63,141 nt of DNA, filler included, from Folioceros fuciformis (GCA_049999805.1; 5 parts of 5 records of this genome joined end to end with filler, not necessarily neighbours in it), one strand, 5' to 3'; shown: positions 5,071 through 61,176, numbered from the whole stretch's first letter. Translations and numbers: made by a program. The notes: generated from the sequence alone by a model not told the origin.

Positions 5071-5807
5071 ACACATTTGGCTCCATATGATAGGGTGTGA
5101 ATTGGATAATGATTGTCTAATAATCAGCCCATTAACAATGGAGGTAGATGCACTGCATTACACTGCAGATCTCATTGCACTCACAACACCTAGGCATCCA
5201 AGCATGGAAATCAAATTTTTGTGCTAAGGATCGCTTGTAACCTTTGAAGATAACCAAAATTCTTGAAATGCAATGCCAAAGAGTCGAAGAGTTCTTCTTG
5301 GATGGTAATCAAATTCACACAAAGAAAATTAATCTCGTCTGGTTTACGAAGTGCAAATATTTTCACCTTATTGAACTCGTTCGTGCACTCCACATCGAGC
5401 ACTAGCTCTTTTCTATAGGAACTGCAAGACTCCCAACCAGTTTCATGGATTGGATGCGTTCACTGCTAAAAGTTCATGGGATGCACCTGCTAAAAGTTCA
5501 TGGGATGCACCTGGACAGTCGGTATGGTTGTCTAAAAATACTCTGTTCTTTGGTATGCTATGACATTCTTTTTTTAGACGACACAAAGAATGTGTCTAAT
5601 GTCCCGTCGTACCTGTGTTGTAACATAACCGTGGAGCAAGTGACAGGCACGACGCACCCGTCGAGTATATATTGTACGTGGATGTGGATAATGTGGATGC
5701 GTTGTTTGAAGACGATTTCGGTCACTATGGCCAGGCGTTGCAAGTGGCATGAAATGTCCGACATTAGGTTGTCTGGATCGGAGCTAGCTACAGGAGGCGT
5801 CTGAGAG

Positions 5808-26636: not shown

Positions 26637-29600
26637 ATGCGGACGGTTTCAGCGGATTGTACGAGTTGCCGAGCATCGAATTTTTCAGGGGCACCTACCG
26701 CTAGTGTGGCATCAAGGAAGCAGGTGTTGGAAAACGATGAGGTTGGAATGTGCAGCAGCGTTGGAAGAAAGTCAGCCCATCCGACAGGATATGTGCAGAG
26801 TGGTCGGAAGGTTTACCGGGGTTTCTCAGGGAAGTGGGATAACAGTCAAGAAGAGGAGAGGCTCCGTTCTCCCGATTTGCATCACAGGCAGTCACAAGGG
26901 GTCCCCTGGCTGAACAACGTCTGCAAGCCAGCTGGGGTGGATTGGCAGCTGGATGCCCTGAATATGTGGCCTTATTCAGCCGCCGACTGGATTCCAGCGG
27001 ATGAAAATGACACTTGCAGATCTGTAGGTCACGACAGTGATGTAACGCCTGAAACGGTGAGCAGGTTATGTCAGGAGGGCCTTCTCCCCGAGGCCGTCGA
27101 GGCTTTGGGAGTTCTGGTGCGGGCAAATTGCTGGATTGCCAAATCTCTCCTGTCGAATGTTATGAAGATATGTATAGTGAACAAGGATCTCGTTCTGGGT
27201 CGGCGTGTCCATGCTCTCACGGTGAAGAAGGGGTACCAGTCAGATAAGTTCCTGGGCTTCCACATCCTGCGAATGTACGCTTCTCATGGCAAGTTGCGAG
27301 ACGCGATGGATGTGTTTGCACTGCTTGCCAAACCAGATGCCTTCACGTGGTCCACCATAATTTCTGCCCATGTTAAGCATGGGCAAGAAAAGAAGGCCGT
27401 GCAGTTGTATCAGGCGATGCGCAGGTCGAAGGTGAAGCCAGACGGACATGTGTTTGTGGCGGCCCTTCAGGCTTGTGCAAGGGCGTTGGACTTGAAGGCT
27501 GGGCAGCAGGTGCATGCTGACGTCTTTGCTGGGGGCGCTCAGGGAGATTTGTTTGTCTGCAATGGCTTGGTGAACATGTATGCAAAGTGTGGAAGCTTGG
27601 AAGATGCTCACTGTGTGTTTGACGGACTTGGTCAGAAAGATGTGGTGACATGGAATGGCCTGATTGCAGGCTATTCGCAAAAGGGCTTGGGTCAGGAAGC
27701 CCTTCGTCTCTACAGTGATATGCAAGAAGACGGTTCTGCACCCGATTCTGTGACTTTTTTGTGCCTCCTGCAGGCGTGTGCCAGTCTGGGCGCGTCAGCT
27801 TTGGGCAATGGGAAGCAGCTTCACCAGCAGATTAAAGATCGTGGATATCAGGCTGATGTGTTCATCGGCAGCAGTTTGGTAAACATGTACGCGAAGTGTG
27901 GCAGCTTGGAAGATGCCCAGAGAGTGTTTGATGGCCTTGCTCAAAAAGATGTGGTGACTTGGACTGCTATGATAGCAGGGTACTCCCAACAGGGAATGGG
28001 CCTGGAAGCCCTTCGCCTTTACGGTGCCATGCAAGAAGGAAGCGCAATGGTACTTGATTCTGTCACAATTCTATGCCTCCTGCAGGCTTGTGCTAGTGTG
28101 GGCACTCCAGCTCTGGAGAGAGGGAAGCAACTTCATGCACAGATCACAGAACAGAGACATCAACCTGATGTGTTTGTAGCCACTAGCTTGGTGAACATGT
28201 ATGTAAAGTGTGGCAGCTTGGAAGACGCCCAAAGAGTGTTTGACCGACTTGGCCAAAAAGGTGTTGTTACATGGAACGTCATGTTAGCAGGCTATTCACA
28301 GCAGGGCATGGGCAAGAAAGCTCTTTCTCTGTACAAAGCCATGCAAGAAGGAGGCTATGCTGTCCCTGATTCCGTGACTTTTGTGTGCCTTCTGCAGGCA
28401 TGTGCAAATCTGGGAACTCCAGCTTTGGAGAAGGGGAAGGAGCTTCATGCTCAAATCAGAGAACGAGGACATGATGCTGATGTCTTTGTAGCCAACAGCT
28501 TAGTAAACATGTATGCCAAGTGTGGCAGCTTGGAAGAGGCTCAAAAATTGTTTGACGGACTTCGTGAGAAAGATGTGGTGACGTGGAATGCCATGATAGC
28601 TGGGTATTCGCAGCAGGGTGTGGGGCAGGAAGCGCTTGTGTTGTACAGCAGTATGCTAGACGAAGGAATTACTCCCCCCAATTCTGTGACTTTCTCGTGT
28701 CTCCTGCAAGCATGTGCAAGTGTGGGCACTGCAGCCTTGGACATGGGGAAGAAGGCTCATGCACAAATCATGGAAGGAGGTCATCACAGTGATGGGTTTT
28801 TATCCAGCGGTTTGGTGAACATGTATGCCAAGTGTGGCAGCTTGGAAGATGCGCAGAGAGTGTTCGACGGGGTCGGTAAAAAGGAGGTGGTGACGTGGAC
28901 TGCTCTAATTTCAGGGTATTGTCAGCAGGGCATGGGCCAGGAAGCACTTCGTCTCTACGGTGCTATGATGGAAGAAGGCCTGGCTGTACCTGATCCGGTT
29001 ACTTTTGTTTGCCTCCTGCAAGCATGTGCAATTGTGGGCACACCAGCTTTGGAGAATGGCAAGCAGCTTCATTTGCAGATTAGGGAACGAGGACTTGGGG
29101 ATGATGTGTTTGTGGGCAGCAGTTTGGTGAACATGTATGCAAAGTGTGGCAGCTTGGAGGATGCTGAAATTGTGTTTGACGAACTTGGTCAAAAGGATCT
29201 GGTCACGTGGACTGCTCTAATCGCAGGGTATTCCCAGCGGGAAATGAGCCACGAAGCCCTTCGTCTGTACAGTGTAATGCAAGTGGAAGGCATCGCCGTC
29301 CCTAATGCCGTGACATTTGTGTGCCTCCTGCAGGCATGTGCAAATGTAGCAGCTTTGCATCTGGGAAGGCAGCTGCACATACAGATTCAAGAGCAAGGAC
29401 TTCAAGCTGATGTATTTGTAGCTGGCAGTTTGATAAACATGTATGGAAAGTCTGGGAGCATGGTCGATGCACAGGAGGTGTTTGATGCAATGGACGACAG
29501 AGACGTTGGTGCCTGGAATGCACTGATTGCAGGCTATACCTGTCAAGGAGATAGTGAAGCGGTCTTTGACCTTGTCCAGAGAATGAGGGAGGATGGCATA

Positions 29601-30086
29601 CAGCCAGTCGATATCACGTTCCTTAGTGTACTAACAGTGTGCAGTCACGCAGGTCTGGTGAACCAAGGATGGGAGTATTTTGAGGATATGACTGAAGACT
29701 TCGGCATAACTCCCACAGAAGACCATTACACATGCATGGTGGATCTCCTGAGTCGTGCAGGGCAGCTGGATGAAGCACTAGCTCTAGCACAAACCATGCC
29801 TGGACTACCTTGTGTTGCAGTGTGGCATACTCTGTTGGGTGCCTGTCGAAAATGGAGGAACGTAGAGGTGGGCCGCCATGCTTTCGGACAAGCAGTGAAG
29901 GCAGACGACAAAGATGCTGCAGCTTATGTCTTGATGTCGAACGTATACACCAGTGCTCAGATGTGGAAGGAGGCACAGAAGTTGCAGATGCGGAGAAAGA
30001 TAATCAGAGCATGGAAGCAGCCGGGTCAGAGTTTTTGGACAGACGAGGATGGACTGGTACATAGTTTCCTGGCTGGGGATGAGTAG
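26637..30086 (+). CDS. PLS-class pentatricopeptide repeat protein, E subgroup (organellar RNA-editing factor type), no DYW domain
   Basis: Intronless 1149-aa ORF; about 8 P-L-S triplets (LVNMYAKCGSLEDA..VFD..KDVVTW.A.IAGY..PDSVTF.CLLQACA); P2-L2-S2 (ITFLSVLTVCSHAG, HYTCMVDLLSRAG); E1/E2 (WHTLLGACR, AYVLMSNVY, KQPGQS). Stops at HSFLAGDE*. The exact start codon is uncertain. Confidence 0.95.
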   Translation: MRTVSADCTSCRASNFSGAPTASVASRKQVLENDEVGMCSSVGRKSAHPTGYVQSGRKVYRGFSGKWDNSQEEERLRSPDLHHRQSQGVPWLNNVCKPAGVDWQLDALNMWPYSAADWIPADENDTCRSVGHDSDVTPETVSRLCQEGLLPEAVEALGVLVRANCWIAKSLLSNVMKICIVNKDLVLGRRVHALTVKKGYQSDKFLGFHILRMYASHGKLRDAMDVFALLAKPDAFTWSTIISAHVKHGQEKKAVQLYQAMRRSKVKPDGHVFVAALQACARALDLKAGQQVHADVFAGGAQGDLFVCNGLVNMYAKCGSLEDAHCVFDGLGQKDVVTWNGLIAGYSQKGLGQEALRLYSDMQEDGSAPDSVTFLCLLQACASLGASALGNGKQLHQQIKDRGYQADVFIGSSLVNMYAKCGSLEDAQRVFDGLAQKDVVTWTAMIAGYSQQGMGLEALRLYGAMQEGSAMVLDSVTILCLLQACASVGTPALERGKQLHAQITEQRHQPDVFVATSLVNMYVKCGSLEDAQRVFDRLGQKGVVTWNVMLAGYSQQGMGKKALSLYKAMQEGGYAVPDSVTFVCLLQACANLGTPALEKGKELHAQIRERGHDADVFVANSLVNMYAKCGSLEEAQKLFDGLREKDVVTWNAMIAGYSQQGVGQEALVLYSSMLDEGITPPNSVTFSCLLQACASVGTAALDMGKKAHAQIMEGGHHSDGFLSSGLVNMYAKCGSLEDAQRVFDGVGKKEVVTWTALISGYCQQGMGQEALRLYGAMMEEGLAVPDPVTFVCLLQACAIVGTPALENGKQLHLQIRERGLGDDVFVGSSLVNMYAKCGSLEDAEIVFDELGQKDLVTWTALIAGYSQREMSHEALRLYSVMQVEGIAVPNAVTFVCLLQACANVAALHLGRQLHIQIQEQGLQADVFVAGSLINMYGKSGSMVDAQEVFDAMDDRDVGAWNALIAGYTCQGDSEAVFDLVQRMREDGIQPVDITFLSVLTVCSHAGLVNQGWEYFEDMTEDFGITPTEDHYTCMVDLLSRAGQLDEALALAQTMPGLPCVAVWHTLLGACRKWRNVEVGRHAFGQAVKADDKDAAAYVLMSNVYTSAQMWKEAQKLQMRRKIIRAWKQPGQSFWTDEDGLVHSFLAGDE

Positions 30087-43791: not shown

Positions 43792-45664
43792 CGTGGGTGA
43801 GACAGCCTGACAATATACGAACTTGTCGCTCGAGTCCGGGTTACTGGAGCAGTTCAGGTTCATTGTACAGTATGTGATGGCGATTGTCACTGCAGTGATC
43901 CGGAACTTGTAGAACGGTGTAGAGCGGCGCATTGGCTATCATTGTTAGAGCTTGGGTCCTTATTGGGTCCCTTATTGAGATGTGTGTTCACGTGAGGCAG
44001 ACATTCGCACCCCTACCTTATTCACGGTGAGTGACACAGCATTGCTGTCATCCCTTGAATGGCAGATGAGAAATTGTGCTGCCATCCAAGCTAAGGTGTG
44101 TGCCTGAGGTTGCGCTTGAGAGGTGACAAGAAGAAGCTGACTCTTAGCAGCCGAGCCAATGACCTTGTGAGGGCTGGAAGCAGGCCAGCACGAAAGACGC
44201 GAGTTCCCCCGCAGACCCTCCTCGGGAGGCCGGCGAAGGTTGGTGGGTCCGGTCTATCTGTCATATTATAAGAAATTGCATTAATATATCGTCTCGTGCT
44301 TTCATTGCCTTCAACTTGTTGGGTGATAGTGACATAGGTCTACAGAGGTGCAGCATCCCTGCGGATGATGGCCCCGGGGCCGGACTCCTCCCTCTGCCAC
44401 CCAGAATAAAATAACACATGGATCTGAATCCGCGAGCGGCCCAAAGTACAAATCTCCTAATCCTTGCATACTAACCCAGGTATGATGCGAATGATGAATT
44501 GTTCTCCGCTTGTTTTTCCTGCTACCAGAAGGCAAAAGCAGTGTGTACATGATTGGGCGGGGCGGCCGCATCTTTGCTTCTTTTTGCTCCTACATTCCGC
44601 AGCTGCTGGCTGCTGCAGCTGCTTCTACTCCTGGGTCCCATACACACCTCACTTTCACACGCGCCGCCACAAGATCGAGCCCGGATCATGGTTGCTGTCA
44701 TGTCATGCCCCTGTTCTCCTGCTGTGGAGTGCGCCTGAAGCTTTCTCGGGTCAGGGACGCGGGACCCAGGACCGAGGCCAGGGTACTCTTCACTGTCTTG
44801 TTCTTGTGCTGCATACACACATTAGTTCCTTCCTTCCTTCCTTCGTTCTTCCTTTCCTCTGCTGCTCTGTTTTGTGTGCCTGTCTATGCCTGTGTTTCTT
44901 TGTGTGTGTTTGTACAGTACAGACAAAAGGGTGGTGGAACAAAGGGCAGCCCAAAGCTGCTGCCCGCTCTGCAGGGACCTGGAAAGGAATAAGGATGCCC
45001 TGGGCTCCACAGATGCTGGATGGCGATGCTGGGCAATGGCCATACTGGCCCATTCTTTGCCCTTTTTTTTATAGCTGTACACATGTTTATCGGATGAGAT
45101 GCCGGCGGTGGCCATGCAACAGATCCGTGGCCAGGCCACCTACCTTTGATACATGGCTTGCAAGACGCTCGTGCACTGACCAACAGCNNNNNNNNNNNNN
45201 NNNNNNNNNNNNNNNNNNNNNNNNNNNNNNNTTAATTAATTAANNNNNNNNNNNNNNNNNNNNNNNNNNNNNNNNNNNNNNNNNNNNAAGAAGCCTGCCA
45301 ATCCATGCCAATGTCTCAAGGATTGCTCGCAAATGACCTTCCTTACAAGATGCAAGCTAATATCACTCAGAGTTTGATTGAAGATAGGGTTACAGTAGCA
45401 TAATTAAGCCGCCACTTGAATATGAACGTTTGATCACGATAACAAATAGTTGTTGTTGGTCTGAAACGACGCTTACAATCGTTGTTGTGGCATAAATGCT
45501 GAAGATGTAGTTCAAACACCCTTGCTATTTCATGAAACAAAAATTCAACTTCACATTTGACTTCAGATCTCATCGTTCAATGCTTAAGACATCCTTCTCT
45601 CCTTCTGAATCAGACCAAGTGTTTTTGAGTTCCATCATTCACAGGCTCTCCAGCGCAATCGACG

Positions 45665-46735
45665 ATGGTAGCTGGTCGACGGAGCAACAAGCAACTGAAT
45701 GCGGCCATTGACATGCAAGCATTGGAGGCACCACCAAGGTTGAAGAAACCACGATAGGGTGCGAAAGCTTCAGCTTGCACTACCTCTGGCCCATTTATGG
45801 AAAGAGATAGCCATCGGCGACCAGCGATCACAATAAGGGATGTTACACCACAGCCACCAGCTGTTACACTAAGGAAAGACAATTCTGCCGGGAGCGTCCG
45901 TGCCTCAAACAACAAAGCTAGCAAAGTTCATATTAACCGTGTTCCTGTGAATGTGACTCAAGATGGCAGCACGGGTGGTAGCCAAAAACCACAACATTCC
46001 AAATGCGTTCAACTTTGTTGAGCGTTTGAAGCTAAAAAAGCTTGAAGACACGCTTGCCAAAAGATTCAACACAGACAAAGAGTGGTTTTTAGTCATAGAA
46101 GAGGAGCCAGAAGAATGCAATTTGCCCTGGGTGCCGCTGGTGGCTCTGTGGGTTAATGGTTTCCAAGGCTTGCAAGACGATGAGGCAAGGAAGCCTGGAT
46201 GGATTCTGTGTGCATCTGTTGACGGCGTGGAAGAGGAAACCCATGTCAATTTCATATGCACGCGGCACCCACCAAGCCATATCACCGATGACTACGATAG
46301 CCACAGGCTTATTGTAGTCAACGTCACGAAACTGTGCCACGGCGCTGTGAACCGATGTGGCTAAAAATCGCTTTGAAAGATTGCTTGAATGTGGAAGATG
46401 TTAGTATTTATTTGGTGTAATGTTGGTTTGTGTTTATAAACCCAGCATAACGCAACCCTAAAATTTCCATTATGTGTTTCCTGCAGGGAGGCGAACAGTT
46501 CTGTCAAACTATTTTGCGCTGTGTTGCTGATTGCATTATGAAGAATCGTGCTCTAGCATCGAGAATCACAGGAGAGCGCTAGAGGGTATCACTCCAAGCA
46601 GAGTTCGGCCCCATCTCATAAAGGCCAACGGAGAGGGTTGAGAGACCGGTGGAGATGCCACGCATGTAGCCAGAGCTTTCGGAAGACGACCTCCCTGACC
46701 CTGAACAGCTAAGCGGTGAGGAGGAGAAAGAGATG
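45665..46735 (+). pseudogene. Disrupted, apparently spliced ORF of unknown function upstream of the methyltransferase
   Basis: ATG 45665 MVAGRRSNKQ..KKPR*GAKAS.. runs in frame into ORF 45797; a frameshift leads into ORF 45963-46364 (KRFNTDKEWFLVIEEE..WVPLVALWVNGF..). A probable intron ends at cctgcag 46487, and an acidic stretch runs into an N-gap. Confidence 0.45.
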
Positions 46736-46869
46736 NNNNNNNNNNNNNNNNNNNNNNNNNNNNNNNNNNNNNNNNNNNNNNNNNNNNNNNNNNNNNNNNN
46801 NNNNNNNNNNNNNNNNNNNNNNNNNNNNNNNNNNNCTCCAGCCACTTCTACACGAAATTAGATTGGGGG

Positions 46870-46897
46870 GGAGTGCGCCGGTCTACCGACGCACTCC
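46870..46897. repeat. GC-rich palindrome/hairpin, copy 1
   Basis: ggagtgcgccggt-ct-accgacgcactcc; its reverse complement matches the copy at 48333-48358 with 2 mismatches over 26 nt. Confidence 0.8.
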
Positions 46898-47116
46898 AGC
46901 CACGAGAAGAGTTTTTCTCTTTACAGTTTAGGATCAATGTAGTTCTCGATTTATAATTGTGCTTGTAGTGTGGTTGTTCTGACCAAACTGTTTGTTGGCA
47001 GAAACCCGCAAACGTAAACGACCTTGAATCATTGCCGAAGCCTTTCCAAGATTATGTGTATTCAGCGAGAAACTGGAAGCGCATGGGAGAGGAAAAATAG
47101 AAACTCGCTGACGCAG

Positions 47117-48161
47117 ATATGGATGCAAGATTATCGAAGCTTAGGGTCCCAAGCAGCAACCAGAAGACTAAGTATCAAGTAATCCAGCGAAACGTTTTGG
47201 AGATGAATGCATTTTTGGTAAAACGACCTTATACTCTATTATTCGTTGATTTGCCTCGCGGACTGGAACGCCATGGATTCGATTGGCAGCTAACAAGCGA
47301 AGAGCTTGAAGACTTGATCAGAGGGTTTTCAGAATGCACAAGCAGTAATGTTTATAGGATGGTCCTCATGCATGGCATGGACCTCATTACACAGGCTAGG
47401 GAAGCACTTTGGCCATGGTGCAAGAAGGGCACCATACAGACATTTATATGGGAGAAGACCAATATTCCTCCCAATGCAGGGCAGTTGAGACTGTGGAGCA
47501 TTTAACTATTGGAAGTGCAAGTCACTTTGAAGCTCAGACCACAAAAGCTACTTTATTCGCGAATCAGGGATTTCTTTTGCCGAGAGTTATAAGGCATGGA
47601 GCTGTGGTTAAAAAACATCTATTCCACTCGGTAGATTCTATGGTCGTCTCGCCGTATCAAAAGCCTCTTGGGTTAATGGGTATGCTGGTCAATATGTTTT
47701 CGGCTGAAGGAGATTGGGTAGTGGATGCGTGCGCAGAATCTGGGTCGTTCCTTCAGGCTGCGATTCAAAGACGAAGGCATGGTGTCGCGATGAACATTGA
47801 TACACGATGCACGACTTATATGATGTAGAGAGTGAATGGCATAGGCTCTTTGTCAGACGCTGACGAGGAGATCAGCACAAACCACTTCTCGCACGGGCCC
47901 ACGAAGTTTAGGGCCAAAGAAGCCTACTCGGACGGTAGCGTGGATCGTCGTATGCAGGTATTCAGTTTGCTGGGGGAAAAAGGAGAGATATTTTCTCAAT
48001 CAGACGACAAACCAGCAGAAGATCTGTATGCGATGACGATATGGGATGAGAATGGCACACTTCCGCCTCAAACTGTGGACAACCCAAATTTCTCTGTCCT
48101 AGACGTGGAGGGCCCAAATTTCTCTGTCCTGTCACAGAGGGCCAACGCCTCAAAGATGTAG
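47117..48161 (+). pseudogene. Degenerate beta-class N4-cytosine/N6-adenine DNA methyltransferase (N6_N4_Mtase-like)
   Basis: Motif order IV-...-X-I, as in beta-class enzymes: LLFVDLPRG (cf. DPPYG), FIWEKTN..VEHLTIG, PYQKPLGLMGMLVNMFSAEGDWVVDACAESGSFLQAA..RRHGVAMNID (cf. HPTQKP..L..LI...S..GD.VLDPFxGSGT...AA...R...G.EI). One frameshift near 47490 and an in-frame TAG at 47826 before an acidic tail. Acceptor ctgacgcag| at 47116. Confidence 0.8.
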
Positions 48162-48332
48162 ATATAGTTGTCGATTCCGAGGCCAACCAAGACGTTCATG
48201 TTTTGGTGTAGAGGTGATTTGGAGAGTAGATGAAGTCCATGGTACATTATGCCTATATTTAAATTCGACTGTTAAACCCGTTAAATTCATAGCATGCAGA
48301 TAGCCAACTTCCTGTCACCCAAACATATTGTT

Positions 48333-48358
48333 GAGTGCGCCGGTAGACCGGCGCACCC
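48333..48358. repeat. GC-rich palindrome/hairpin, copy 2
   Basis: gtgcgccggt-ag-accggcgcac, with perfect 10-bp arms (48335-48356). Confidence 0.85.
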
Positions 48359-48891
48359 GAAGTACGATTCGTTTTTTCTGGAAATTTTCATAGTTCTAAT
48401 AACTTATGTACCAGTTGGTTGGGGGCTGAAAGCAAATTTGTGGAGATGGATGGCATCCACCACAAGTCAAAACAAGTGTTTTTTTTTTTAAACGGCTTAA
48501 ATGTGGATATGTGACTATGATGGTATAAATTCAAATGTGCACCAAACGGGCTTCATAGAATACGACCATCCCTATATGAGACCTATAGATGCAAGGTGTC
48601 TTCAACTGTCATCAAGCGGAAACAGCTATTTGAATTATATGTTAGTTGCTTCATGTTGACTCCTATATTTGACAACACCTTCGTCTTCCATTATTTTTGT
48701 TGAAACGAGGAGGGCATTCAAGGGAATGTGGATCGCTCATGTTGTTTGTATCCATAATCACTGCATAATGGTACTCAAGCTCTATTCCCGTTATTGGTGA
48801 GTACTCTACTAACACCTACATGCTACAACACTACTACAATTTCAAACTCACACATTACTCTACAATACAACAAGCGCCATTGTGCTATATG

Positions 48892-51600
48892 TGTAACACC
48901 TCCCACTCGAAACAAATATTGAAGAATAACTGGAAAAAACAATTTCAACATTTTCGGGGCTACACCAAATAACACCCAAGGACATTAAGCAAAACATCCG
49001 GAACGTAAGGCATGAAGGTGCAAGTCTACACTTTCACACCCCGAGCTCATGAGCTGGGCAACAAGACATGGACAACAAGCAATCGGAGGGTGGATTTTTC
49101 AGGAGATAAGAGTGAATGTAGGCATGAGGTCATCGCATGGTTGTCATGAGGTAGCCATGAGTGCGACACCGCAATTGCAAGCTAGGCAAGCACACACCTT
49201 GAGCTAAAGAGCTGGGCAATGCCATCAGCAACAACAAGCAAGACATGTTTGGAGGACTTTTTAGCAACCACATTGGACAGGGGGAACTACAGCAAGATCG
49301 AGATAGCCATGAGGTCCCCGTGATTACAGGCTAAGCAAGCACACACCTTGAGCTCAAGAGCTAGGCAACACCATCAGGGACAACAAGCAAGATAGGTTTT
49401 GAGGACTTTTTTGGCGACCAGATTAGACAAGGGGAATAGTGCCGAGATCAAGGTAGCCTTGAGGTCCCCATGATTACATGCTAGGCAAGCACACCGTAAG
49501 CAACATGGAAGCCCTGCTGAAGAGGATAGCCAAGTAGACTACGACCACCCTATATCCAAGTACCTCTTAGAGGTAAGGGCTTAGAGGTGCACAATTGAAG
49601 TTGTGCTCCTCAACCTTTTTGGAGATAGTGTGATACAGGATGTGTGCCCTACAGGAAGCAATCAAGTAGGAGCACGAATATTCCTCGGCATGAAAACAAC
49701 TATAGGTTATCACTTCAATCTCATGAGTCAAGGGTTTCTTGATCAGATGCTACGGCGGCTAGTGGGTGTGGAAGGTGGATTGAGAGGAGAGGAAGGGGAG
49801 GCAATTCTACAAGGCACACGGATGTGGATCCAAGTTTGGTTTTGTGAGCTTATGATGTGCAGGGTTTGAGATAGCACTCTGTTCCTTGCAAGCGAGGTTG
49901 CCTAGCCTCCAAGGAGGCATGAAGGCAAACTCGAGGGGCACCCGTTTCAACACGCACAACACAAGATGCTACATGCATTGTGTCTTTGATATATCAAAGG
50001 CTCCAACAACCTTGAATTTTTAGTTCGCTGAAGGAATTGCCGAATAAACACAAACAGTTCAACAAATCCTTCACACGAGGGAGGTGTCTCGCAACACCAA
50101 CCACTCCATACTACGAGTGATCATACGCTGATAAGTCATTGGACTGCAAGTACCCCATGTCACAGCATCTACTCCATTTGCCCCATGTGCGGAGATGGTC
50201 ACATGTGTGCCCCCTACGAATTTGGCTATTCCATGCCATCCATGATGCACTTCAAGTGGTTATGTGAATTTGCTTTCAGAGGATGTGCCTCCTTCACACC
50301 CATCATGAACACTATCACACCCTCATTGCTAACCATGCACTAAGCCTAAGATGAAGGGCGTGTTGTGTGTTTTTTCTTCTTATGAAGGATCTACAGTCAA
50401 TGAAGGAGTCTCAAAGCAAAAGAGCAAGTTGACAACCATTCTTGGTGACCACTTGATCCGTATTAGGTCGTCACCAAGAATGGTTATCAACTTGCTAGCT
50501 AGGAGAGTTGGCAAAAGTCAACATACAACCAAAAGTGTACAACGCATGGTCCTGCCTTGACAAATGGTTTAGGACCGATGTGTGGCCTTGAATGTCCTCA
50601 AAGGTTTCACAATCCTCTCAACTCTTTTGAATGATTTCCATCTTGTGAGAACATTTCCGAATGTCATATCCCACCTAACCTAGTTTTTGCTTATCACTGA
50701 TTAAGGCTTGATTGATCTCCTTTACTATAGCATGCAACTTGTCATATGTCTATTGGATTATGTACGTTCTTGGTACTTCATTCTCAATGCCCTCTGTAGG
50801 TAATATATTTGGGTCCAATTCATCTCCATGATCAATACGAATGTAGTGCAATATTGCACATTCATAAGAAACCTCGGTGAAGTAGTTGATGTTCCCCTGC
50901 CAGATATTTCTTCCCAATATTTGCCATACTTTTTTTCAATGCTCCAAAAGCAGGTTCAACAACCATTCTTGTAGATGAATGCTGGTGATTAAAGGACTCC
51001 ATATTACACAATAAACCTCAACCATTCTTGTGTATCAATGCTTATAATTAAAGGACTCCATATTACGCAATAGACTTATACATGGGAAAAGAATAACAAA
51101 CCAAGGCAATAAAAGATAACTTGCATCACCTATTATGTATTCTCTTATGGCTTGTTCACCAACTATGACGACCTCTCTATTTAGTCTTCTACTTGCATTT
51201 CCCAAATGATAAAATTACCTATTATAGAAAATACATATGTCATTATTTGCTCTTGGCCACCGTGTAATAATGTCCAAGAATTCCCAAATGATAAAATTTC
51301 CTATTACACAAAATATTAGTTGCTCTTGGTCGCCTTGTAACAATGTCCAAGAATTTCTTGTCAGGCCCTACAATGGCTTGCATTGCCATACTATAGCCTT
51401 TGTATCATTCACAATATTCCCATGAGTTTTCCTTCATGGGAAGCTCCATCTTGAAGTGAGTTGCATCCAAATTCGTCCAGTATGGTTTGTGAAGTTCCTC
51501 GCTAGATATGATTCGTGGAGTTCCTTAAAGTAGATAGCTCCACGTTGTACTCGGAGCCACAGGCTAGCGAGCTTGGTGGATTATGGGGGTTCGAGCTGCA
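48892..51600. mobile_element. Degenerate LTR-retrotransposon-like remnant with a ~149-bp internal tandem repeat
   Basis: Begins TGTAACACC, a typical LTR start. Two and a bit diverged copies of gcta(g/a)gcaagcacacaccttgagct..gaggtcccc(g/a)tgattaca lie at about 49181-49494. No intact ORFs; the right boundary is uncertain. Confidence 0.45.
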
Positions 51601-52118
51601 GGACGGATTTTCTGTGGGATTTTCTTGTCCCATCCAGGACATGGGATTTTCTTGTGCTATCCAGGAATTTTGTTTCTCAATGTGCTGACTGTCGAGTTAA
51701 AGGCACGTACTTTAGGACCCCATGCGATTGAGTAGCATCTTGTATCTACAAATTCCCCATCATGCTCTGAGTCACAAGCCCCAATATCCAAATTAGCAAG
51801 AACCAAATATAAGTTGGAGCGAATGTTCAAGTCCTGACAAAATTAATAAGAAGGTGTAAATCAATTACATTTAAGTAATTACATCATTATTTATTATCAA
51901 GAAGAAGTAAGTTAATTAAGAAACCAACTAGACTTAAACTAGCTGTTGAAAGGACATGACCTTTAGCTAGAGACACAACCCTAGCGAAGCGACAAGTAGC
52001 TAAAATGAAAACCATATCCCTATTCACACTAGCTACATATGAAACGAAACCCTAAGCAATGATTCAATACACTATCTTCCATTAAGTCCTTGGTGGTAGA
52101 CATCGAGCAGCTTCAATG

Positions 52119-55100
52119 TGATCTAAAGACCTCTCATAATGAATTACAAGAACTCCGGTCGACATTTCAGAATTCGAAGCAACAGTATGAGGATAAATTC
52201 AATCGCAACAGAAAGAGATTGATGACTTGAGGCAAGTGCATGCAGTGGAATTCCCAATAATACGGGCTAATATCACGCAAAATAGGTACCAGATTAAGTC
52301 TATCCAAAAGCAACTGCCGACATTTGTTCCCAAAAGCTTCATCTCCCTCAAATTCGATCGAATCTATGGGAACATCACCAAGAACAAATGAATTGCCTTC
52401 AAAATGACGTGTCCACAACTTATATGCCCAAGACAAACATCACAGACTTGCGGGAGGGCATTATGGACTCTGTGAAGAAGCAGTTATCGGCCGAGTGTAT
52501 GCCTGTCAAGGATGTCCCCATATCACAGGATTACATCATACAAAGAGCCTCCACCTCTGTGGATGCCAAATGCGCAGCTTTAAAGCAATTTGTGCACGAA
52601 GAACTCAAGACCAGGACTGGCAGATTGGCAGTCTCAAAGCTTGAAGTTGCAGATCACATCTCCGTGACAAAAGTGATTGTGCAATAGGAGGTCAGCAAGT
52701 TCATCAAGGAATAGGCCCACAGCCCTCAACTCTGCTTGACGTTTCTAATTCCCAGGGATTGCTTGCCTCGCCTTCTGATACAGTCAATGCAACTATCATG
52801 GAATCCCAGGAGCGATTGAGGCGCTCACTTAACCTTCGGATAATAGGTTTGCAAGGTTCAGGAACTCCACGACATGTTGTATCTGACTTTCCTGCCACAA
52901 AGCTTCATCTCCCTGGCGTTCCTCTTTAGAATGCTTGGTTGGTTGGGAAGGATCCAGACCGCCCGTTGGTTTTTCTAATTCGTTTTCACTCTGCTCAAGA
53001 TAGGCTTCAGGTGCTAAAGGCTCGTACCAACCTTCGGGACCAAAATATTTTTATTACTGATGATTTAACTAAGTTGCAAATGAAGACCAAGCAAGCTCAA
53101 ATGCCTGCCTTCAGGAAGGCTCCTGCCGCAGGAAAAATTGCATTTTTCTATGTGGATCGCTTGATCATTAAGGTGGATGATCAAGTCCAAGAAGGGCTTA
53201 AGCCCCTATAAGAAGTTGCGGCCTGCAAGGCCCAATCTAGGTGTATCCTTCGGATGGCATCCTGGAACTGCAACGGATCTTTATGAGCACAACCAGGTGG
53301 GATGCTCCACCTTACAGCGGGCCACGACTTGATCTTCCTTACGGAGACTCATGAGCAGCAGGCTAGACACCTTCTCACTTTTCCCAATTTCCTTTCTTCT
53401 TCTTTATTTATGGAATATGTTTCATGCAACATGCCTAAAGCTGCAGGTGGTGTGGCTTGTTTCTTTCGGTCCTCTCTCTCAAATGTTGTGACTATGGCAA
53501 AGAAAGACTCCTTTGAGAGAGTTTTGTGGATCAAGGTTTCTACAACGATTCTTCCTTCTAACCGTCATCTATTCATTTCTTGCTATTTTTTCCACCTCAA
53601 GGTTTTCCTTATGCTAGAGGCCAGCCTCTTATGACATTTCAAGACCTCTCTGATGACTTGATGCATTTTATGCCTTTGGGTGATATTCTGTTGGTTGGAG
53701 ATTTCAATGTGTGGACTTCATCCGAGCAGTTCCCTATTATGTATGCACCTGATGATCAACAACAAATATTCCTGCTTGATCTAGTTGATCTTGGCTTCGA
53801 GAGAAGAACAGAGGATCCACACCAAGTCAATATCTTTGGTAGGGTGCTTCTCAACCTTGTGGAGTCACATGGCCTACTTATCTACAATGGCCTTCCTCAA
53901 TGGCGCGGGAGTGAGAGAATTACGCACTATGCACCTTCAGGTCAACTTCCTACTGTCCTTGACTATGCCATTGGGCAACCCTCCTTTGTTTCTTCTGTTC
54001 GTCAATTCTTTGTTTTTGACATTAGGCCTTTTGAGTCTGACCATGCCTTCCTTTCTTGGCATATCCTTTTTGATAAATTTGACCCTATGCTTCAATCCCA
54101 TAAGTCTTCTAGAATTCGCTTTTCCCTTCACCATGGCCTAGCTCCCCAATACTCCTCCTTTTTGAAAAAGCCAATTGCCGCCATCCATCCTAGCCTTTCG
54201 TTCCCCCAACAAGCCAATGATTTCACTTCTGCCATGCTCCATGCTGCAAACCAGATCTTCCCCCTAAAGCCTTGTCATGCCGTCAAGCTATCTAACACTG
54301 CTCCTCGACACCCTTGGTTTGATGACGAGTGCAAGCGCCTTCGCTTTCACACTCACAAATACCTCCAATTCCTCAATGTCTCATCCAAGTCCCACCACTC
54401 CCCACTCTACAAGAAAATTGTCAAACCTTATAAAGCCCTTATTGCTGTCAAAAAGTCTGCCTTCTTTTCCTCCCAACATGATCGCCTCTTGAAGCGCCTC
54501 AAGGAATCTCTTGGGGGTGCTACTTTTTGGAAACAGGTTCTCCTCTCATCAAACCATCCAACTATAAGTGTCCCCTGAGCTCATCAATTATGTACAAGCC
54601 CTCTTCTTCCGAGAGTCTGCTCCCCTTCCTTTTAGGATTCAAGACCCTGGGGTCAAGCTTTTCACTCCTGACCTCGTCATGGCTGCCATCAATAATCTTA
54701 GATCTGGGAGAGCCTCTGACCCTGTAGACATCCCAGGGGAACTCCTTGCGTATGCATCCCCTAATGTTATTGCCCCTCCCTTAGCTGCCCTATTTAATGA
54801 GTCGCTGGTACATGGATTCCTCGAAGCATGGTGTTGGAATGACCTCCACTCTATCTTCAAGGGAGGTGACCCACAACTATCGGTCAACTACAGGTATATT
54901 ATGGTGGAGTCTATTTTTGCCAAGATTTTTAGCTCGTGCTTGGAAATACTCACCATGTCTTGGGCTGAGAATGCTAGCATCAGAGCAAGGGGCCAAGCTG
55001 GCTTTCGTCCGCAGCAGAATACATAGGATCATCTATTTACTCTCATTGCCATTATTCAGGAGGCCAAGAGCAGACAGAAGGTTATCAGACATGTTTATGT

Positions 55101-55700
55101 GTGCTTTGTTGACTTCAAGCACGCCTTTGACTCTATCTCTCGGGAGAAGCTCTTTGCCCGCCTCGAGAGGTTGAGGATGCCAGCTCATCTTTTACATGCT
55201 ATTGGGATTCTATACAAGAAGGTTAAGGTCAAAATCCGTACTCCTTATGCTGCCTTTCATCTTTTGGACTTCCTATGTAATATGGGAGCACGACAGGGGG
55301 ATCCATCTTCTCCTAACTTATTTGGGCTCTACATTGATGATTTAGAGTCTTGGATTGTAGAGTCTGGGGATCCAAATTGACTACTCTCCTTGTACATTGC
55401 TGTTCTCCTATATGCAGATAACATTGCCCTCTTGTCTCATTCCCCAGAGGGCCTCCAAAAGCAACTAGACGTATTGTCACGCTTTTATGAGGCTAGAAAC
55501 TTGGAAGTGAACCTCAAGAAGAGCAAGGTCATGTTCTTCAATCGGCGGGATCCAGTTAACCACAATCTCAAGTTCTTCTATAATGGCCAGCGATCGGAGA
55601 TTGTGCAATCTTATGTCTACTTTGGTGGCGCTATCTATGGTCCAACACTCCAATGGAAGCTCTTTGCCTCAACTCGTATTCTAAAGGTGTGGCATCGGCA
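52119..55700 (+). mobile_element. Decayed non-LTR retrotransposon (LINE): ORF1 plus APE-RT ORF2, 3'-interrupted
   Basis: ORF1 remnants: coiled coil, RRSLNLRIIG, IRFHS..RLQVLKARTNL..IFITDDLT. ORF2 from 53254: SWNCNG, LTETH, GGVACF, LVGDFN, LDYAI, SDH, PWFDDEC, QAGFRP, FVDFKHAFDSI, GARQGDPSSPNLF, LLYADN. Multiple stops and frameshifts. Confidence 0.92.
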
Positions 55701-58700
55701 TGTGGGGTGCGGAGACAATGCTCTCGGATGTTGTGAACGAAAAAAACTTTCGGAATCCCCATTTTGAGCGACGGAATGAGCAGGTTGTGATTCTTTTTGT
55801 GAAGGGACAGGCGAATCGGCTTTGTAAGCGAGTAAGACCAAGGTGTTTATACCCAAAGTCCACCTTGGGCTTCNNNNNNNNNNNNNNNNNNNNNNNNNNN
55901 NNNNNNNNNNNNNNNNNTTAATTAATTAANNNNNNNNNNNNNNNNNNNNNNNNNNNNNNNNNNNNNNNNNNNNTCAGAGTAACCCTAGTGGCGTGGTTAC
56001 AGACTTTTCAGTCTTAACAGGAACATCTAGAGGCTGCCGAAGGGCAACACGTCTCAGCCGCAGGCAGCCCAATCGGGGAGTTGCCTGGCGGGATCCAGGT
56101 GGTCTGAGTAGTAGGAGGTAGCCGGAGCTAGGGGCAAAAAGGGCAGTCGGGCGGCGGCTGAGGAGGGTCGACCTGGCTGCTTGGCCAATCCACCCAGCCA
56201 ACAGTCCAGCCCGGGCTGGTGGCAAGAAGGAGGTCCGGGGCCAGATCCGAGCCGGGGTCCTGGCCGAGTTCAGTGTGCAGGAGGGCTGATCGGCTAGTTG
56301 GGCAAGTGGGGGCAAATCAGGCCCGAACCCTGGCCAGGAGTGGATCCAGGCTAGGAAGACTGGTGGAGCGCATGGCGGCTGTCAGGGGTGGACCTCGTCG
56401 GGTTGGCTCAGCAGAGGCCGGCCGCTCAGTAGTAGCTAGGTCCAAACTAGGCAGGTGGCGACCAGATCCAAACGGTTCAAAACCAATCAAGCAACAAGGT
56501 GACTGGGCTAGGGCTCCGGATGAATGTGGCCAGACTCAGAAGCTAGGTAGTGGCCTGGCTGCAAGATCTTGAGCAGGAGTCGGCAGCGCGGGATGACGAT
56601 AGGAGGCATATGGCCTAGCTTGCAGGTGGAACCAACCAGGCGGGCAGCCACCTAGTGGCTGGCAGTTGACCCAGGGGATCCTGGCCAGGGGGGGGGGAAC
56701 CCCTGGCCCCTAGCCGGCCAACGAGCCAGCAGGCTAGCGGGCCGGATTTGGGGGATGGTCTACTTGGTCGGCGAGCGGGTTTGGGTGCCAGCACCGGGCT
56801 TGGAGGGCGGGCTAGGTGGGGTGGCTGCTTGCCAGATTGCCAAGGCAGGCCATGGCCGGTCCCGTTAGGAACCAGGCCTAACAATAGCACAGGCGGGTGG
56901 GATTCGGACCAGACGACCAGGGGGGCTGGATCCAAATAGTCAGGCTGTGAACGTCGGGCAGCCCGAGCTCTGGTTGAGCGGAAGGAGGGGCTGGCATATC
57001 CAAAGGCAGCCAGGCCTCGGTGGGCCTGGTAAGTGGGGTCTAGCTGGCAAGGGGGCTGGCTAGGCCATGGCGAGGATCCGCCAGGCAGAGGCGGCGCTGG
57101 ATCCGCCTAGCTTGGCTGACTGATCTGAAGCAAGCCATGCCTGCTGCAGGCGAGAGGCGGCCTGGCTGGTTGATTTTGGAGCCGGGCAGCCAGGAATGGC
57201 GATTTGGCATCTAGGCAGACTCTTAGGCCGGCTGCAGGCGCCTAGGCAGGCAAGGCAGCAGCTGGGCGAGTCGGGGGCCGACGTGCAGCGGCTAGTAGGT
57301 GAACCTGCCTGGCTAGATGTGAAGGCCAGAGGCCGCAGGTTGGATGAGGAATGGTCTGCGGAAGGCGCTGCACAAGGCGGGCTGCTAGCAAGATCAGGCC
57401 GGCTGGCCGAGGAGAATCCAGGCCGAGGAAGATTGGCTGGTGGAAGGCGGTGACTGAAGCGCCTAGCCAGCAACCAACCTGGCCCGGCTGCAAGCAGGCA
57501 TCGGTAGCTGGCGTACTGCCTGGTAGAAGGTGACAGGGGTGGCTGCATGCAGGCAGCATGCGGGCCAGCAAGCTGACTGCCCGAAAGGATCTAGGGGGGG
57601 CTGTAGGTGACTGAATCTAGCTGACGTGCAAGCAAACTTGCAGGCAGATCCCGGCGAGTCTGGCCAAATTGCTAGATAGCCAACCAGCCCGGCAACAGCA
57701 GCCGGGTAGGCCAGCTGCAGCCAAGCAGCAGGCGGTCCCGCAGGCTGACTGCCTAGCCAGATCTAGGCGGCCAGGCAATTGTGCACTAGGCGGAGCAATC
57801 AAGTTGGATTTAGGGAGTAGGGTAGGGGCTCGTTGGACCCCCTCCTCTGAGCGAACCAGCCACACCCTCGCGTTCAAGCCAGAAGTGGAGTCTTATCTCA
57901 CCAAGCACTACAAATAAAAGTGTGCCAATAATTTGCAAATTTGGCGAAGGGGGCTTGTGGAGGAGGGTTTGCTCGTCTCGGGCACCAAAGATGTTTCGGA
58001 TCACTTGGCTAGGACCGGATAAGGGCCAGAAGGTGACGTTCGGGGAGCTGCTGGAAACTTGACGGTGGTGGCACGTATTGCCAAGATAGTGACTTGTGGC
58101 ATGGGGAGGCAAATGGAAGGTGAAAGGCTACCAGAAGAGTGCGTGCGGACAAAGCTGAGGGACTGGCAAACTGCCCCATCTAGATGTTGGAGAGTGGTCA
58201 ACCATATAGAGTGATATATCTAACATTTGGCTGTCCGTCGACGACCAGCATGCCTGGCTGCTCGCACGAGGAAGGCCTCAATACAAACATGCTGCTTGTA
58301 GATGGGGAGCCTGATGGTGGAATGTCATTTTTAGGTGCCAGGTTTACAAGGCTGCCCCTCAAGAGCACCAGACCAGCAGCGTGGAGGCTGAACGAACGTG
58401 AAGAGGTGGAGGCTCTGAAGGTTCGCAGGATGATCTAAGGGGAAGGTATTATCTGATCTGAGAGAGAAGGGAAGGGTGTTGAGAACCACTCCTAATTTTT
58501 GGTAATTGTGAGGTGTTGATAATTTTGGGATAGAGGGCAACGAACGGTGTCTAAGGAGGTAACAGGAAATTAGGTGAAGGGGTAGGTTAGAAATAGGCTT
58601 GGTTCAGGTTAAGGTCAGAACTAGGGTAGACCTAGGTTAGGTCTAGGGTAGACCAAGGTTAGGTCTAGGGTAGACCTAGGTTAGGTCGAGGGTAGACCTA

Positions 58701-61076: not shown

Positions 61077-61176
61077 NNNNNNNNNNNNNNNNNNNNNNNN
61101 NNNNNNNNNNNNNNNNNNNNTTAATTAATTAANNNNNNNNNNNNNNNNNNNNNNNNNNNNNNNNNNNNNNNNNNNN

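What the first reader, a model, noticed from the sequence alone, without database searches (positions are those of the whole stretch)
47117..48161. Bacterial-type beta-class N4C/N6A DNA methyltransferase remnant in a plant transposon nest
Seen: two frameshift-linked ORFs give DLPRG ... WEKTN ... PYQKP..LVNMFS.EGDWVVDACAESGS..AA..RRH..MNID. This is the catalytic-motif-first, SAM-motif-last order of beta-class amino-methyltransferases, and a plant-type splice acceptor lies in front. Established: such enzymes are prokaryotic restriction-modification components and rare in eukaryotes; HGT-derived 4mC writers are known in Marchantia (DN4MT1) and bdelloid rotifers (N4CMT). Inference: this is a decayed copy of a eukaryote-domesticated or transposon-borne amino-MTase family, so intact relatives may write 4mC/6mA in this genome. 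This copy is probably inactive (DLPR for DPPY, CAESG for FxGSG, a frameshift and a TAG).
Basis: partly seen in the sequence, partly recalled or inferred. Interest (0 to 1): 0.85.

Follow-up and report, generated by a model that had tools for sequence, protein, structure and literature searches.

The report
Dead copy of repeated methyltransferase-like gene
This is a broken copy of a gene present in many versions in this plant genome; it encodes a DNA-methyltransferase-like protein from a little-known, apparently non-bacterial family whose closest members all carry an unusual active-site motif.

Summary
Window 46969-47912 (+), with the open frame running on to 48161, is one unspliced beta-class (permuted) amino-methyltransferase-like gene. 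It is broken by two in-frame TAGs (47098-47100, 47826-47828) and a 1-base deletion at 47477-47479.

- The gene is not bacterial-type. An exhaustive HMMER search and a tree place it in a distinct clade (signature D[ILFV]P[YHR]G ... [NS]xYQKP ... DxCxGSG) that includes a Ginkgo protein.
- DLPRG is not decay. All four closest intact relatives that cover this region have it.
- CAESG is decay. Most other copies in the same DNA sample read G there, and about half of the depth at the break shows an extra base that restores the frame.
- Public DNA runs hold hundreds of 90-99% similar contigs over this stretch, so it is a dispersed repeat.
- In one metagenome, relatives lie next to a DUF7869 transposase-like gene at 3 loci, which hints at a DNA-transposon vehicle.
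- No specific link to MpDN4MT1 (TSPPY motif) or to rotifer N4CMT was found.

This copy is inactive. Whether the family methylates anything is untested, and the Tyr-to-Arg change argues for caution. I rate it a moderately interesting new variant of a known kind.

The parts
46969..47478 (+). N-terminal half of the MTase-like pseudogene (frame 1). It holds the linker motif LPKPFQDYVYSARNW, motif IV DLPRG at 47248-47262, and IWEKTN at 47446-47463.
   Evidence: tblastn of P0003, P0060, P0001 and P0029 aligns here (E 1e-16 to 3e-25). No Pfam family at E<=10 on its own.
47098..47100 (+). First in-frame stop (TAG). It falls where relatives have K or Q.
   Evidence: Alignments to P0003 and P0060 read through it.
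47477..47481 (+). Frameshift: one base is missing in or next to the run GGG (47479-47481).
   Evidence: The frame changes from 1 to 3 between 47466 and 47469. In DNA runs other copies carry an extra G behind 47478 (depth 51.7 of 104 in X1, 29 of 69 in X2) or an extra A behind 47477. Contigs identical to the window lack it.
47479..47825 (+). C-terminal half (frame 3): VEHLTIG, SPYQKP at 47649-47666, motif I DACAESGS at 47724-47747, and ...GVAMNID.
   Evidence: PF01555 E 1.7e-5. phmmer best hit 5.2e-15. 47737 A>G (Glu to Gly) is the majority in the other copies: 149.9 of 165.3, 125.1 of 125.1 and 58.3 of 58.3.
47826..47828 (+). Second in-frame stop (TAG). It falls where relatives have Leu.
   Evidence: Alignments to P0003, P0001 and P0029 read through it.
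47829..48161 (+). C-terminal tail. The motif SLSDADEEI and the sequence after it are homologous to relatives up to about 47912. The rest is an open frame holding a 26-nt direct repeat (copies at 48075-48100 and 48105-48130, spacing 30).
   Evidence: tblastn of P0007 reaches 47912. Repeat D8. Other copies differ before 48133 (table 7).
46871..46898 (.). GC-rich palindrome upstream of the gene. It is a member of a short dispersed repeat.
   Evidence: 0 matches in shuffles. Many contigs join it to unrelated sequence (tables 5 and 7).
48333..48360 (.). Second copy of the same palindrome, downstream of the gene.
46736..46835 (.). 100-N assembly gap directly upstream. It hides whatever precedes the gene.
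53287..55767 (+). Decayed LINE (endonuclease and reverse transcriptase) on the same gap-free stretch. It shows that the contig is eukaryotic.
   Evidence: RVT_1 E 1e-8 and 1.3e-6; Exo_endo_phos E 0.0065.

Best explanation
Window ~46969-47912 (frame open to 48161) is a dead copy of a gene that occurs in many diverged versions in this plant's DNA. The gene encodes a beta-class (circularly permuted) amino-methyltransferase-fold protein of a distinct clade that seems not to be prokaryotic.

The clade's catalytic loop reads D-[I/L/F/V]-P-[Y/H/R]-G instead of (D/N/S)PP(Y/F/W). Its other signatures are [N/S]xYQKP and DxCxGSG. The sub-clade nearest the window has DLPRG, with Arg in place of the base-stacking aromatic residue, while keeping the SAM-binding glycines.

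Shown here: the window copy cannot make the protein. It has two premature TAGs, a 1-base deletion and a private Gly-to-Glu change in motif I.

Inferred: the family is carried by, or has spread like, a DNA transposon, as an accessory gene. Its product would act on nucleic acid with SAM, either as a methylase of unusual specificity or as a catalytically weakened SAM-dependent binder that helps the element.
For: Identity and fold:
- Window pieces: Pfam, PHROGs and the Atlas, as quoted under the observation check.
- 13 of 14 relatives scanned pass the Pfam cut-off.
- The AlphaFold model of P0003 (core blocks at pLDDT 85-97) matches CcrM, M.BceJIV, M.MboIIA and M.RsrI at Foldseek E ~1e-12.

One broken gene: colinear tblastn of both halves, reading through both TAGs.

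Distinct clade:
- On the tree, 39 rows including the window separate from 19 phage/bacterial-type rows with support 98/91.
- One member is Ginkgo biloba Gb_37443.
- P0017 found no relative in prokaryote genomes. The signature PYQKP-x14-G[DE]W gave 10 matches, none of which encodes a relative.

DLPRG is a trait of the sub-clade: P0001, P0003, P0029 and P0060 plus the window all have it, 5 of 5 members that cover the motif.

Repeat family: 330, 223 and 126 contigs of three DNA runs of one sample lie on the stretch. In X1 they split 64/111/155 at >=99, 95-99 and 90-95% identity. Up to 15 different contigs carry the other base at one site.

Window-private damage: other copies carry the missing base, Gly in motif I, and Gly and Val at 47772 and 47782, where the family has GRNV.

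Transposon hint: a convergent DUF7869 ORF (PF25273, E 8.9e-50) lies next to the gene in L006, L010 and L032.
Against: - No transposase, terminal repeats or target-site duplication were found around the window copy.
- The ends of the repeat unit are unknown, because a gap lies upstream and only 1561 bases were laid on reads.
- The three DUF7869 loci come from one metagenome. That DUF7869 is a transposase is my reading of its D...D...H/D motifs and was not tested.
- Summed contig depth is not a copy number, and the runs may be the data the window was assembled from.
- Only the Ginkgo protein and the window have a known eukaryotic source. The other members are unnamed.
- 10 synonymous against 20 non-synonymous differences to the other copies does not separate neutral decay from weak constraint.
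- No activity, expression or DNA-modification data exist.
Confidence: 0.72

Rival explanations
1. It is a pseudogene of an ordinary, domesticated host gene family that expanded by duplication, not a transposon passenger. The intact paralogues would serve a host function.
For: The window shows no transposase or terminal repeats. Motifs are conserved across relatives that are only 25-50% identical. A Ginkgo gene model exists.
Against: There are hundreds of 90-99% similar contigs in one DNA sample. Many database members are fragments with a broken motif I: P0018, P0022, P0025, P0036 and P0052. Relatives neighbour a DUF7869 transposase-like ORF at 3 loci. The copy lies among a LINE and tandem repeats.
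Confidence: 0.15
2. It is a relative of the horizontally acquired 4mC writers (Marchantia DN4MT1, rotifer N4CMT), so intact copies write 4mC in this genome.
For: It shares the Pfam family and the permuted fold. The P0003 model matches N4CMT 8s9o at E 9e-11 and M.PvuII at 5.8e-10.
Against: DN4MT1 has TSPPY (passages of the Walker preprint), whereas this family has D[ILFV]P[YHR]G. The family profile scores N6A enzymes higher (CcrM 3.9e-14) than N4CMT (1.4e-8, over 52 residues only), and M.PvuII is not listed at E<=0.01. N4CMT is 13% identical to the P0003 model, against 17-21% for CcrM and BceJIV. No MpDN4MT1 sequence was available for a direct comparison.
Confidence: 0.05
3. It is bacterial or phage DNA: either contamination of the assembly or a very recent transfer.
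For: The nearest large Atlas clusters are phage PF01555 families. The window is a linker-joined scaffold, so the plant genes lie on other pieces.
Against: A LINE remnant lies on the same gap-free stretch. GC content is like the neighbouring sequence. Many diverged copies exist, with transitions in excess: in X1, 100 transitions against 44 transversions. The closest relatives are 45-49% identical proteins with long low-complexity tails and a Ginkgo member, not phage proteins. Viral contigs gave only 27-35% matches over 59-86 residues.
Confidence: 0.03
4. The gene is intact in the organism, and the frameshift and stops are assembly errors.
For: The frameshift lies in a short G run, and the assembly has gaps.
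Against: Contigs of two runs reproduce the window's version exactly across 47415-47589 and 47707-47852, the latter covering the second TAG (table 8, records 3, 7 and 13). There are three independent lesions plus the Gly-to-Glu change. These runs may not be independent of the assembly.
Confidence: 0.05

Closest known systems
Beta-class (permuted) N6-adenine DNA methyltransferases: CcrM, M.BceJIV, M.MboIIA, M.RsrI, M1.HpyAVI (Pfam PF01555)
   Same: Same Pfam family and same motif order (IV...X-I). These are the best sequence-profile matches (3.9e-14 to 2.7e-10) and the best fold matches (E ~1e-12).
   Different: The catalytic tetrapeptide is D[ILFV]P[YHR]G, not DPP[YFW]. The motif is [NS]xYQKP rather than HPTQKP. 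The clade is separate on the tree. Members have long acidic or low-complexity C-terminal tails, and many have a ~500-residue N-terminal region of unknown fold.
Marchantia polymorpha MpDN4MT1a/b (4mC writers of sperm DNA)
   Same: A PF01555-type enzyme resident in a land-plant genome.
   Different: DN4MT1 carries TSPPY and clusters with prokaryotic N4C enzymes (passages of bioRxiv 10.1101/2021.02.12.428880). It is two tandem genes without extra domains (passage of PMC8885841), not a dispersed repeat. No direct sequence comparison was possible.
Bdelloid rotifer N4CMT (PDB 8s9m/8s9n/8s9o)
   Same: A beta-class fold in a eukaryote. The model of P0003 matches it at E 9e-11.
   Different: It is 13% identical. 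The family profile matches only its last 52 residues (1.4e-8). N4CMT has a chromodomain, and its authors report no eukaryotic homologues (passage of PMC8885841).
Red-algal transposon accessory gene PAG2 (PF01555 + SET) of Plavaka/Zisupton elements
   Same: A PF01555 methylase-like gene carried as a passenger by DNA transposons, mostly in degenerate copies (section 8 of bioRxiv 10.1101/2025.02.11.637652). This is the best analogue for how the family may live.
   Different: No SET domain here. Homology to PAG2 was not tested because no sequence was available. That vehicle is a Plavaka (CACTA) element, whereas here it is unknown, with a DUF7869 ORF in 3 related loci.
Catalytically degenerate MTase-fold paralogues (METTL14; the MTase domain of DIRS1 retrotransposons)
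   Same: An MTase fold kept under selection after loss of canonical active-site residues. The DIRS1 case is transposon-borne (passages of PMC4738411).
   Different: These are different MTase clades. Here only the aromatic residue is replaced and the SAM motif is kept, so loss of activity is not shown.

Membership tests
Pfam N6_N4_Mtase (PF01555) / beta-class amino-MTases | Profile match at or above the gathering score | tested here: inconclusive
   The window's C-terminal piece scores 25.4 bits against a 26.7 cut-off, and the N-terminal piece gets no hit. 13 of 14 relatives scanned pass, for example P0001 at 50.1 and P0003 at 30.0 bits; P0043 is at 25.0.
Pfam N6_N4_Mtase (PF01555) / beta-class amino-MTases | Permuted order: catalytic motif IV first, motifs X and I last | tested here: met
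   DLPRG at 47248-47262, SPYQKP at 47649-47666, DACAESGS at 47724-47747. Relatives show the same order.
Pfam N6_N4_Mtase (PF01555) / beta-class amino-MTases | Catalytic tetrapeptide (D/N/S)PP(Y/F/W) | tested here: not met
   DLPR in the window and in P0001, P0003, P0029 and P0060. D[IV]PYG in 11 family-type metagenome loci; DIPYG/DFPYG (DIPHG in P0011) in other family proteins. The canonical consensus is recalled knowledge; DPPF, DPPW and DPPY are seen in the prokaryote-type loci.
Pfam N6_N4_Mtase (PF01555) / beta-class amino-MTases | SAM-binding motif I (FxGxG type) | tested here: not met
   The window has Glu for the first Gly (DACAESGS). Relatives have DxCxGSG, and most other genomic copies read GGA (Gly) at 47736-47738. 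So it is met for the family but not for this copy.
Pfam N6_N4_Mtase (PF01555) / beta-class amino-MTases | Beta-class MTase fold | tested here: met
   Tested on the relative P0003, not on the window copy: Foldseek E 2.6e-12 to CcrM 6pbd, and also MboIIA, RsrI and BceJIV.
N4-cytosine writers (MpDN4MT1, N4CMT) | S in motif IV (TSPPY/SPPY) | tested here: not met
   The window and its relatives have D at that position. TSPPY is taken from passages of the Walker preprint.
N4-cytosine writers (MpDN4MT1, N4CMT) | Closer sequence kinship to N4C than to N6A enzymes | tested here: inconclusive
   The profile favours N6A enzymes (CcrM 3.9e-14 against N4CMT 1.4e-8). However, specificity has switched repeatedly in PF01555 (passage of PMC8885841), and no MpDN4MT1 sequence was available.
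Transposon accessory gene (like red-algal PAG2) | Many dispersed, diverged copies in one genome | tested here: met
   330, 223 and 126 contigs at 90-100% identity in three DNA runs of one sample; up to 15 contigs carry an alternative base at one site.
Transposon accessory gene (like red-algal PAG2) | Linked transposase and element termini (TIR, TSD) | tested here: inconclusive
   None was found in the window. A convergent DUF7869 ORF lies in 3 related loci of one metagenome. Its transposase nature is my reading and was not tested.
Transposon accessory gene (like red-algal PAG2) | SET domain fused to the methylase domain | tested here: not met
   No SET hit in 14 relatives at E<=0.01, nor in 4 long forms at E<=10.
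Phage-type ParB-N6_N4_Mtase fusions | ParB-CTPase fold N-terminal to the methylase | tested here: inconclusive
   The N-terminal domain of the long forms (A3) got no ParB match by PDB profile search, by Pfam (only DUF6551 at E 0.0015 in 1 of 4), by Foldseek (best E 0.2) or by VIA-align (best Z 3.4). The model is poor: only one of five models reached pLDDT 72.

The most novel reading that the evidence does not exclude
Land plants, including this species and Ginkgo, carry a so far undescribed transposon-spread lineage of beta-class amino-methyltransferase-fold proteins with their own ~500-residue N-terminal domain. In one conserved sub-clade the base-stacking Tyr has become Arg (DLPRG) while SAM binding is kept. 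That would make it either an enzyme with a new target (another base, RNA or protein) or a SAM-dependent DNA binder that the element uses against host silencing. Copies with the frame and motif I intact exist in this genome and could be active.
Probability: 0.25. Interest if true: 0.75.

Novelty: new variant of a known kind. Interest (0 to 1): 0.5.

Why it matters
Amino-methyltransferases of the bacterial restriction-modification type are rare in eukaryotes. The two known cases that write 4mC, in Marchantia sperm and in bdelloid rotifers, each changed how eukaryotic DNA marks are understood.

A separate lineage that is apparently mobile, sits in land plants and has a non-canonical catalytic loop would be a third kind of case. 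It would give a direct test of whether transposons carry their own DNA-modifying or anti-silencing proteins in plants, as has been proposed for red-algal Plavaka elements.

The copy in this window is dead and has no function of its own. It is useful only as a pointer to the family.

Tried and rejected
1. Own genome: none is held. Copies therefore could not be counted or their ends defined.

2. Word-indexed protein searches were nearly blind to this family.
- C-terminal piece, longer proteins: no hit.
- P0003: 3 proteins.
- Alignment A1: 12 proteins, of which only P0060 was a new close relative.

3. ParB idea. From memory, the conserved 'GGxH..A' block of the long forms looked like ParB or DGQHR. 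Four tests gave no support, so I do not claim it.

4. Viral origin. IMG/VR gave only 4 weak phage-type loci.

5. Expression. No RNA holder was listed, and the one guessed RNA run had nothing laid on the stretch. This says nothing either way.

6. N-terminal domain in the window. An HMM built from 16 sequences, run against the six-frame translation, found nothing better than E 2.4.

7. DUF7869 in the window: no tblastn hit. DUF7869 is found in no paper and has no PDB sequence relative.

8. Terminal repeats. A self-comparison of 45288-53300 found only local tandem repeats. The flanking palindromes are a separate dispersed short repeat and not element ends.

9. Prokaryote genomes. P0017 alone found nothing.

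10. Earlier findings of this scan: nothing to show.

11. Literature searches for a land-plant PF01555 family or a transposon-borne one found only the Marchantia, rotifer and red-alga cases. Supplementary files were not seen. The Supporting Information of PMC4738411 and the supplemental table and figures of the Bostrychia preprint may list related families.

12. The synonymous to non-synonymous count (10:20) is too small to show selection.

Full report
**Observation.**
- Frame 1 from 46969 gives ...LESLPKPFQDYVYSARNWKRMGEEK*KLADADMDARL...YTLLFVDLPRGLERHGFDW...TIQTFIWEKTNIPPNAGQ.
- The frame one base back gives, from 47487, VETVEHLTIG...VVSPYQKPLGLMGMLVNMFSAEGDWVVDACAESGSFLQAAIQRRRHGVAMNIDTRCTTYMM*.
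- The same frame then stays open to 48161.

The statistical support is as follows.
- The C-terminal piece hits Pfam N6_N4_Mtase at E 1.7e-5 (25.4 bits, cut-off 26.7). The other two pieces hit nothing.
- It also hits PHROG DNA-methyltransferase families (best E 1.6e-8). All 30 Atlas look-alikes are PF01555 clusters. In the PDB its best, weak, sequence matches are TTHA0409 and M.RsrI.
- Intact relatives align colinearly to both halves. P0003 residues 10-173 match 46990-47466, and residues 222-324 match 47586-47891. P0029 matches with a joint E of 3e-27.

This is therefore one unspliced gene. It carries two in-frame TAGs (47098-47100 and 47826-47828) and a -1 frameshift at the run GGG (47479-47481).

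**Surroundings.** The window is plant nuclear DNA. It holds Raf1, SufBD, a 1159-residue PPR-E protein, NUP160 exons, lipin and a copia gag. However, it is a scaffold. Four 44N-TTAATTAATTAA-44N linkers join separate contigs.
- The gene lies on the piece 45288-55873.
- A 100-N gap sits just upstream of it (46736-46835).
- Downstream on the same gap-free stretch lie ~150-bp tandem repeats and a decayed LINE (RVT_1 E 1e-8).
- So the DNA is eukaryotic and repeat-rich, but adjacency to the plant genes on the other pieces is not assured.
- Two GC-rich palindromes flank the gene (46871-46898 and 48333-48360). Read data show they belong to a short repeat dispersed in many contexts, so they are not element ends.

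**The family.** Word-indexed searches were almost blind to it. The exhaustive HMMER search of 1.84 billion representatives gave 55 hits at E<=0.001. One of them (P0005) is an ankyrin false positive. The rest fall into two kinds.
- Phage/bacterial-type proteins have DPP[YF], HPTQKP and DPxAGSG.
- A second kind has D[ILF]P[YHR]G, [NS]xYQKP and DxCxGSG, often with long acidic tails. The window belongs here.

On a tree of an 86-column region, 39 rows including the window separate from 19 phage/bacterial-type rows with support 98/91.
- Before building the tree I dropped P0005, three near-copies of P0017, and seven sequences that were too short or lacked the anchor motif.
- My 'euk' label was a motif rule. 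It missed five rows that nevertheless fell inside the family clade.

Only one member has a named source, Ginkgo biloba Gb_37443. Of the 14 members scanned, 13 pass the Pfam cut-off.

A model of P0003 built from 20 aligned members has a confident core (pLDDT 85-97).
- It matches CcrM, M.BceJIV, M.MboIIA and M.RsrI at E ~1e-12.
- It matches rotifer N4CMT at 9e-11 and M.PvuII at 5.8e-10.
- The sequence profile ranks the N6A enzymes first (CcrM 3.9e-14). N4CMT comes lower (1.4e-8, last 52 residues only).

In prokaryote genomes P0017 found no relative. The signature PYQKP-x14-G[DE]W matched 10 places, about what chance predicts by my estimate (~9). None of them encodes a relative.

**DLPRG is a trait, CAESG is damage.**
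- The four closest relatives that cover motif IV (P0001, P0003, P0029, P0060) all read DLPRG, like the window. They are only 29-50% identical to the window's halves in tblastn.
- The wider family reads DIPYG, DFPYG or DIPHG. Eleven family-type metagenome loci read D[IV]PYG, and none reads DLPRG.
- The Arg is therefore an old, fixed feature of one sub-clade.
- By contrast, the Glu in DACAESGS is private to this copy. At 47737, A>G (GAA to GGA) holds 149.9 of 165.3, 125.1 of 125.1 and 58.3 of 58.3 of the depth in three runs.

**A repeat family in the source organism.** Two DNA runs of one sample hold the stretch. Laying four runs on 46840-48400 placed 330, 223, 126 and 0 contigs.
- In X1, 64 are >=99% identical, 111 are 95-99% and 155 are 90-95%. 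Up to 15 different contigs carry the alternative base at one site.
- Depth is a sum over contigs and is not a copy number, and the runs may be the assembly's own data. Even so, many diverged versions clearly exist.
- Differences are mostly transitions (X1: 100 against 44 transversions).
- At the frameshift, other versions have an extra G behind 47478 (51.7 of 104 in X1; 29 of 69 in X2) or an extra A behind 47477. Either restores the frame.
- At 47772 and 47782 the other versions encode Gly and Val, where the family consensus is GRNV.
- Contigs identical to the window span the frameshift and the second TAG (table 8, records 3, 7 and 13), so these lesions are probably real.
- Of the 30 best-supported coding differences, 10 are synonymous and 20 are not. 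This is uninformative about selection.
- No variant at either TAG was among the 40 rows shown; 146 further rows were not shown.

**Architecture and vehicle in relatives.** A metagenome scan gave 80 loci.
- In 14 of them an ORF upstream on the same strand matches the ~500-residue N-terminal region of the long forms P0011, P0035, P0054 and P0055. A gap of a few hundred bases before the MTase ORF looks like an intron.
- The window has no such domain in its assembled sequence.
- The fold of that domain is unknown. My recalled likeness to ParB found no support.
- In three loci of one metagenome (L006, L010, L032; 70-83% identical to each other) a convergent ORF with DUF7869 follows the gene (PF25273, E 8.9e-50).
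- I read its DGMDQ...QLDN...GHTHDQID pattern as transposase-like. This rests on my own knowledge and was not tested.

**How it most likely works.**
- Shown: this copy is dead.
- Shown for the family: a beta-class MTase fold with the SAM motif kept.
- Inferred: the gene spreads with, or like, a DNA transposon as an accessory gene, and its product binds SAM and nucleic acid.
- DIPYG-type members keep Asp, Pro and Tyr and may well methylate adenine N6 or cytosine N4.
- The DLPRG sub-clade lacks the aromatic residue that stacks on the flipped base (established knowledge of amino-MTases, recalled). It may therefore have another target or be a weakened enzyme, as METTL14 and the DIRS1 MTase domain are thought to be (passages of PMC4738411).

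**Comparison and novelty.**
- MpDN4MT1a/b carry TSPPY and cluster with prokaryotic N4C enzymes (passages). N4CMT is reported to have no eukaryotic homologues (passage).
- The 2015 survey of eukaryotic N6A-MTase clades lists no land-plant permuted clade of this kind, and states that land plants have few such enzymes (section 8 and passages of PMC4738411).
- The nearest analogue is PAG2, a PF01555+SET accessory gene of red-algal Plavaka and Zisupton transposons (section 8 of the Bostrychia preprint).
- My searches found no description of this plant family. Supplements were not seen.
- I rate it a new variant of a known kind. The locus itself is an ordinary pseudogene, and the family behind it is moderately interesting.

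Noticed in passing
window 22434-22533, 45188-45287, 55874-55973, 61077-61176: Four identical artificial linkers (44 N, TTAATTAATTAA, 44 N) join separate contigs. The window is a pseudomolecule-style scaffold, so gene order across the linkers may not be real.
   Followed up: yes
window 46871-46898 and 48333-48360 (also CTCCAGCCAC at 46836, on the edge of the gap): A GC-rich palindrome (GAGTGCGCCGGTnnACCGnCGCAC, followed by TCCAGCC) occurs twice around the gene. In DNA runs it is joined to many unrelated sequences, so it is a short dispersed repeat of unknown nature.
   Followed up: partly
window 53287-55767 (+): Decayed non-LTR retrotransposon: a weak endonuclease hit and two RVT_1 pieces in different frames.
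   Followed up: partly
window 48977-49500 and 50960-51355: Tandem repeats with a unit of about 150 bp (79-85% alike), plus shorter ~60- and ~80-bp tandem units downstream of the gene.
   Followed up: no
window 5805-7178 and 26607-30086: Intronless Raf1 (Rubisco accumulation factor 1) ORF of 457 residues, and an intronless 1159-residue PPR protein with an E motif.
   Followed up: no
L006 1945-3081(-), L010 2994-3539(-), L032 966-2981(-): A DUF7869 protein (672 residues open in L032) lies convergent to the MTase-like gene in three diverged copies from one metagenome. Its motifs look like a DDE-type transposase. No paper mentions DUF7869.
   Followed up: partly
L005, L007, L008, L010, L011, L013, L015, L022-L025, L027, L035, L036; proteins P0011, P0035, P0054, P0055: A conserved ~500-residue region N-terminal to the MTase domain, with invariant residues such as Y..GG...A...L...P and H.N. 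It has no Pfam family above threshold and no fold match.
   Followed up: partly
L005 403-1779 (+): A 459-residue ORF upstream of the N-domain and MTase gene, with no Pfam hit and no similarity to the reference proteins. It may be a further gene of the same element.
   Followed up: no
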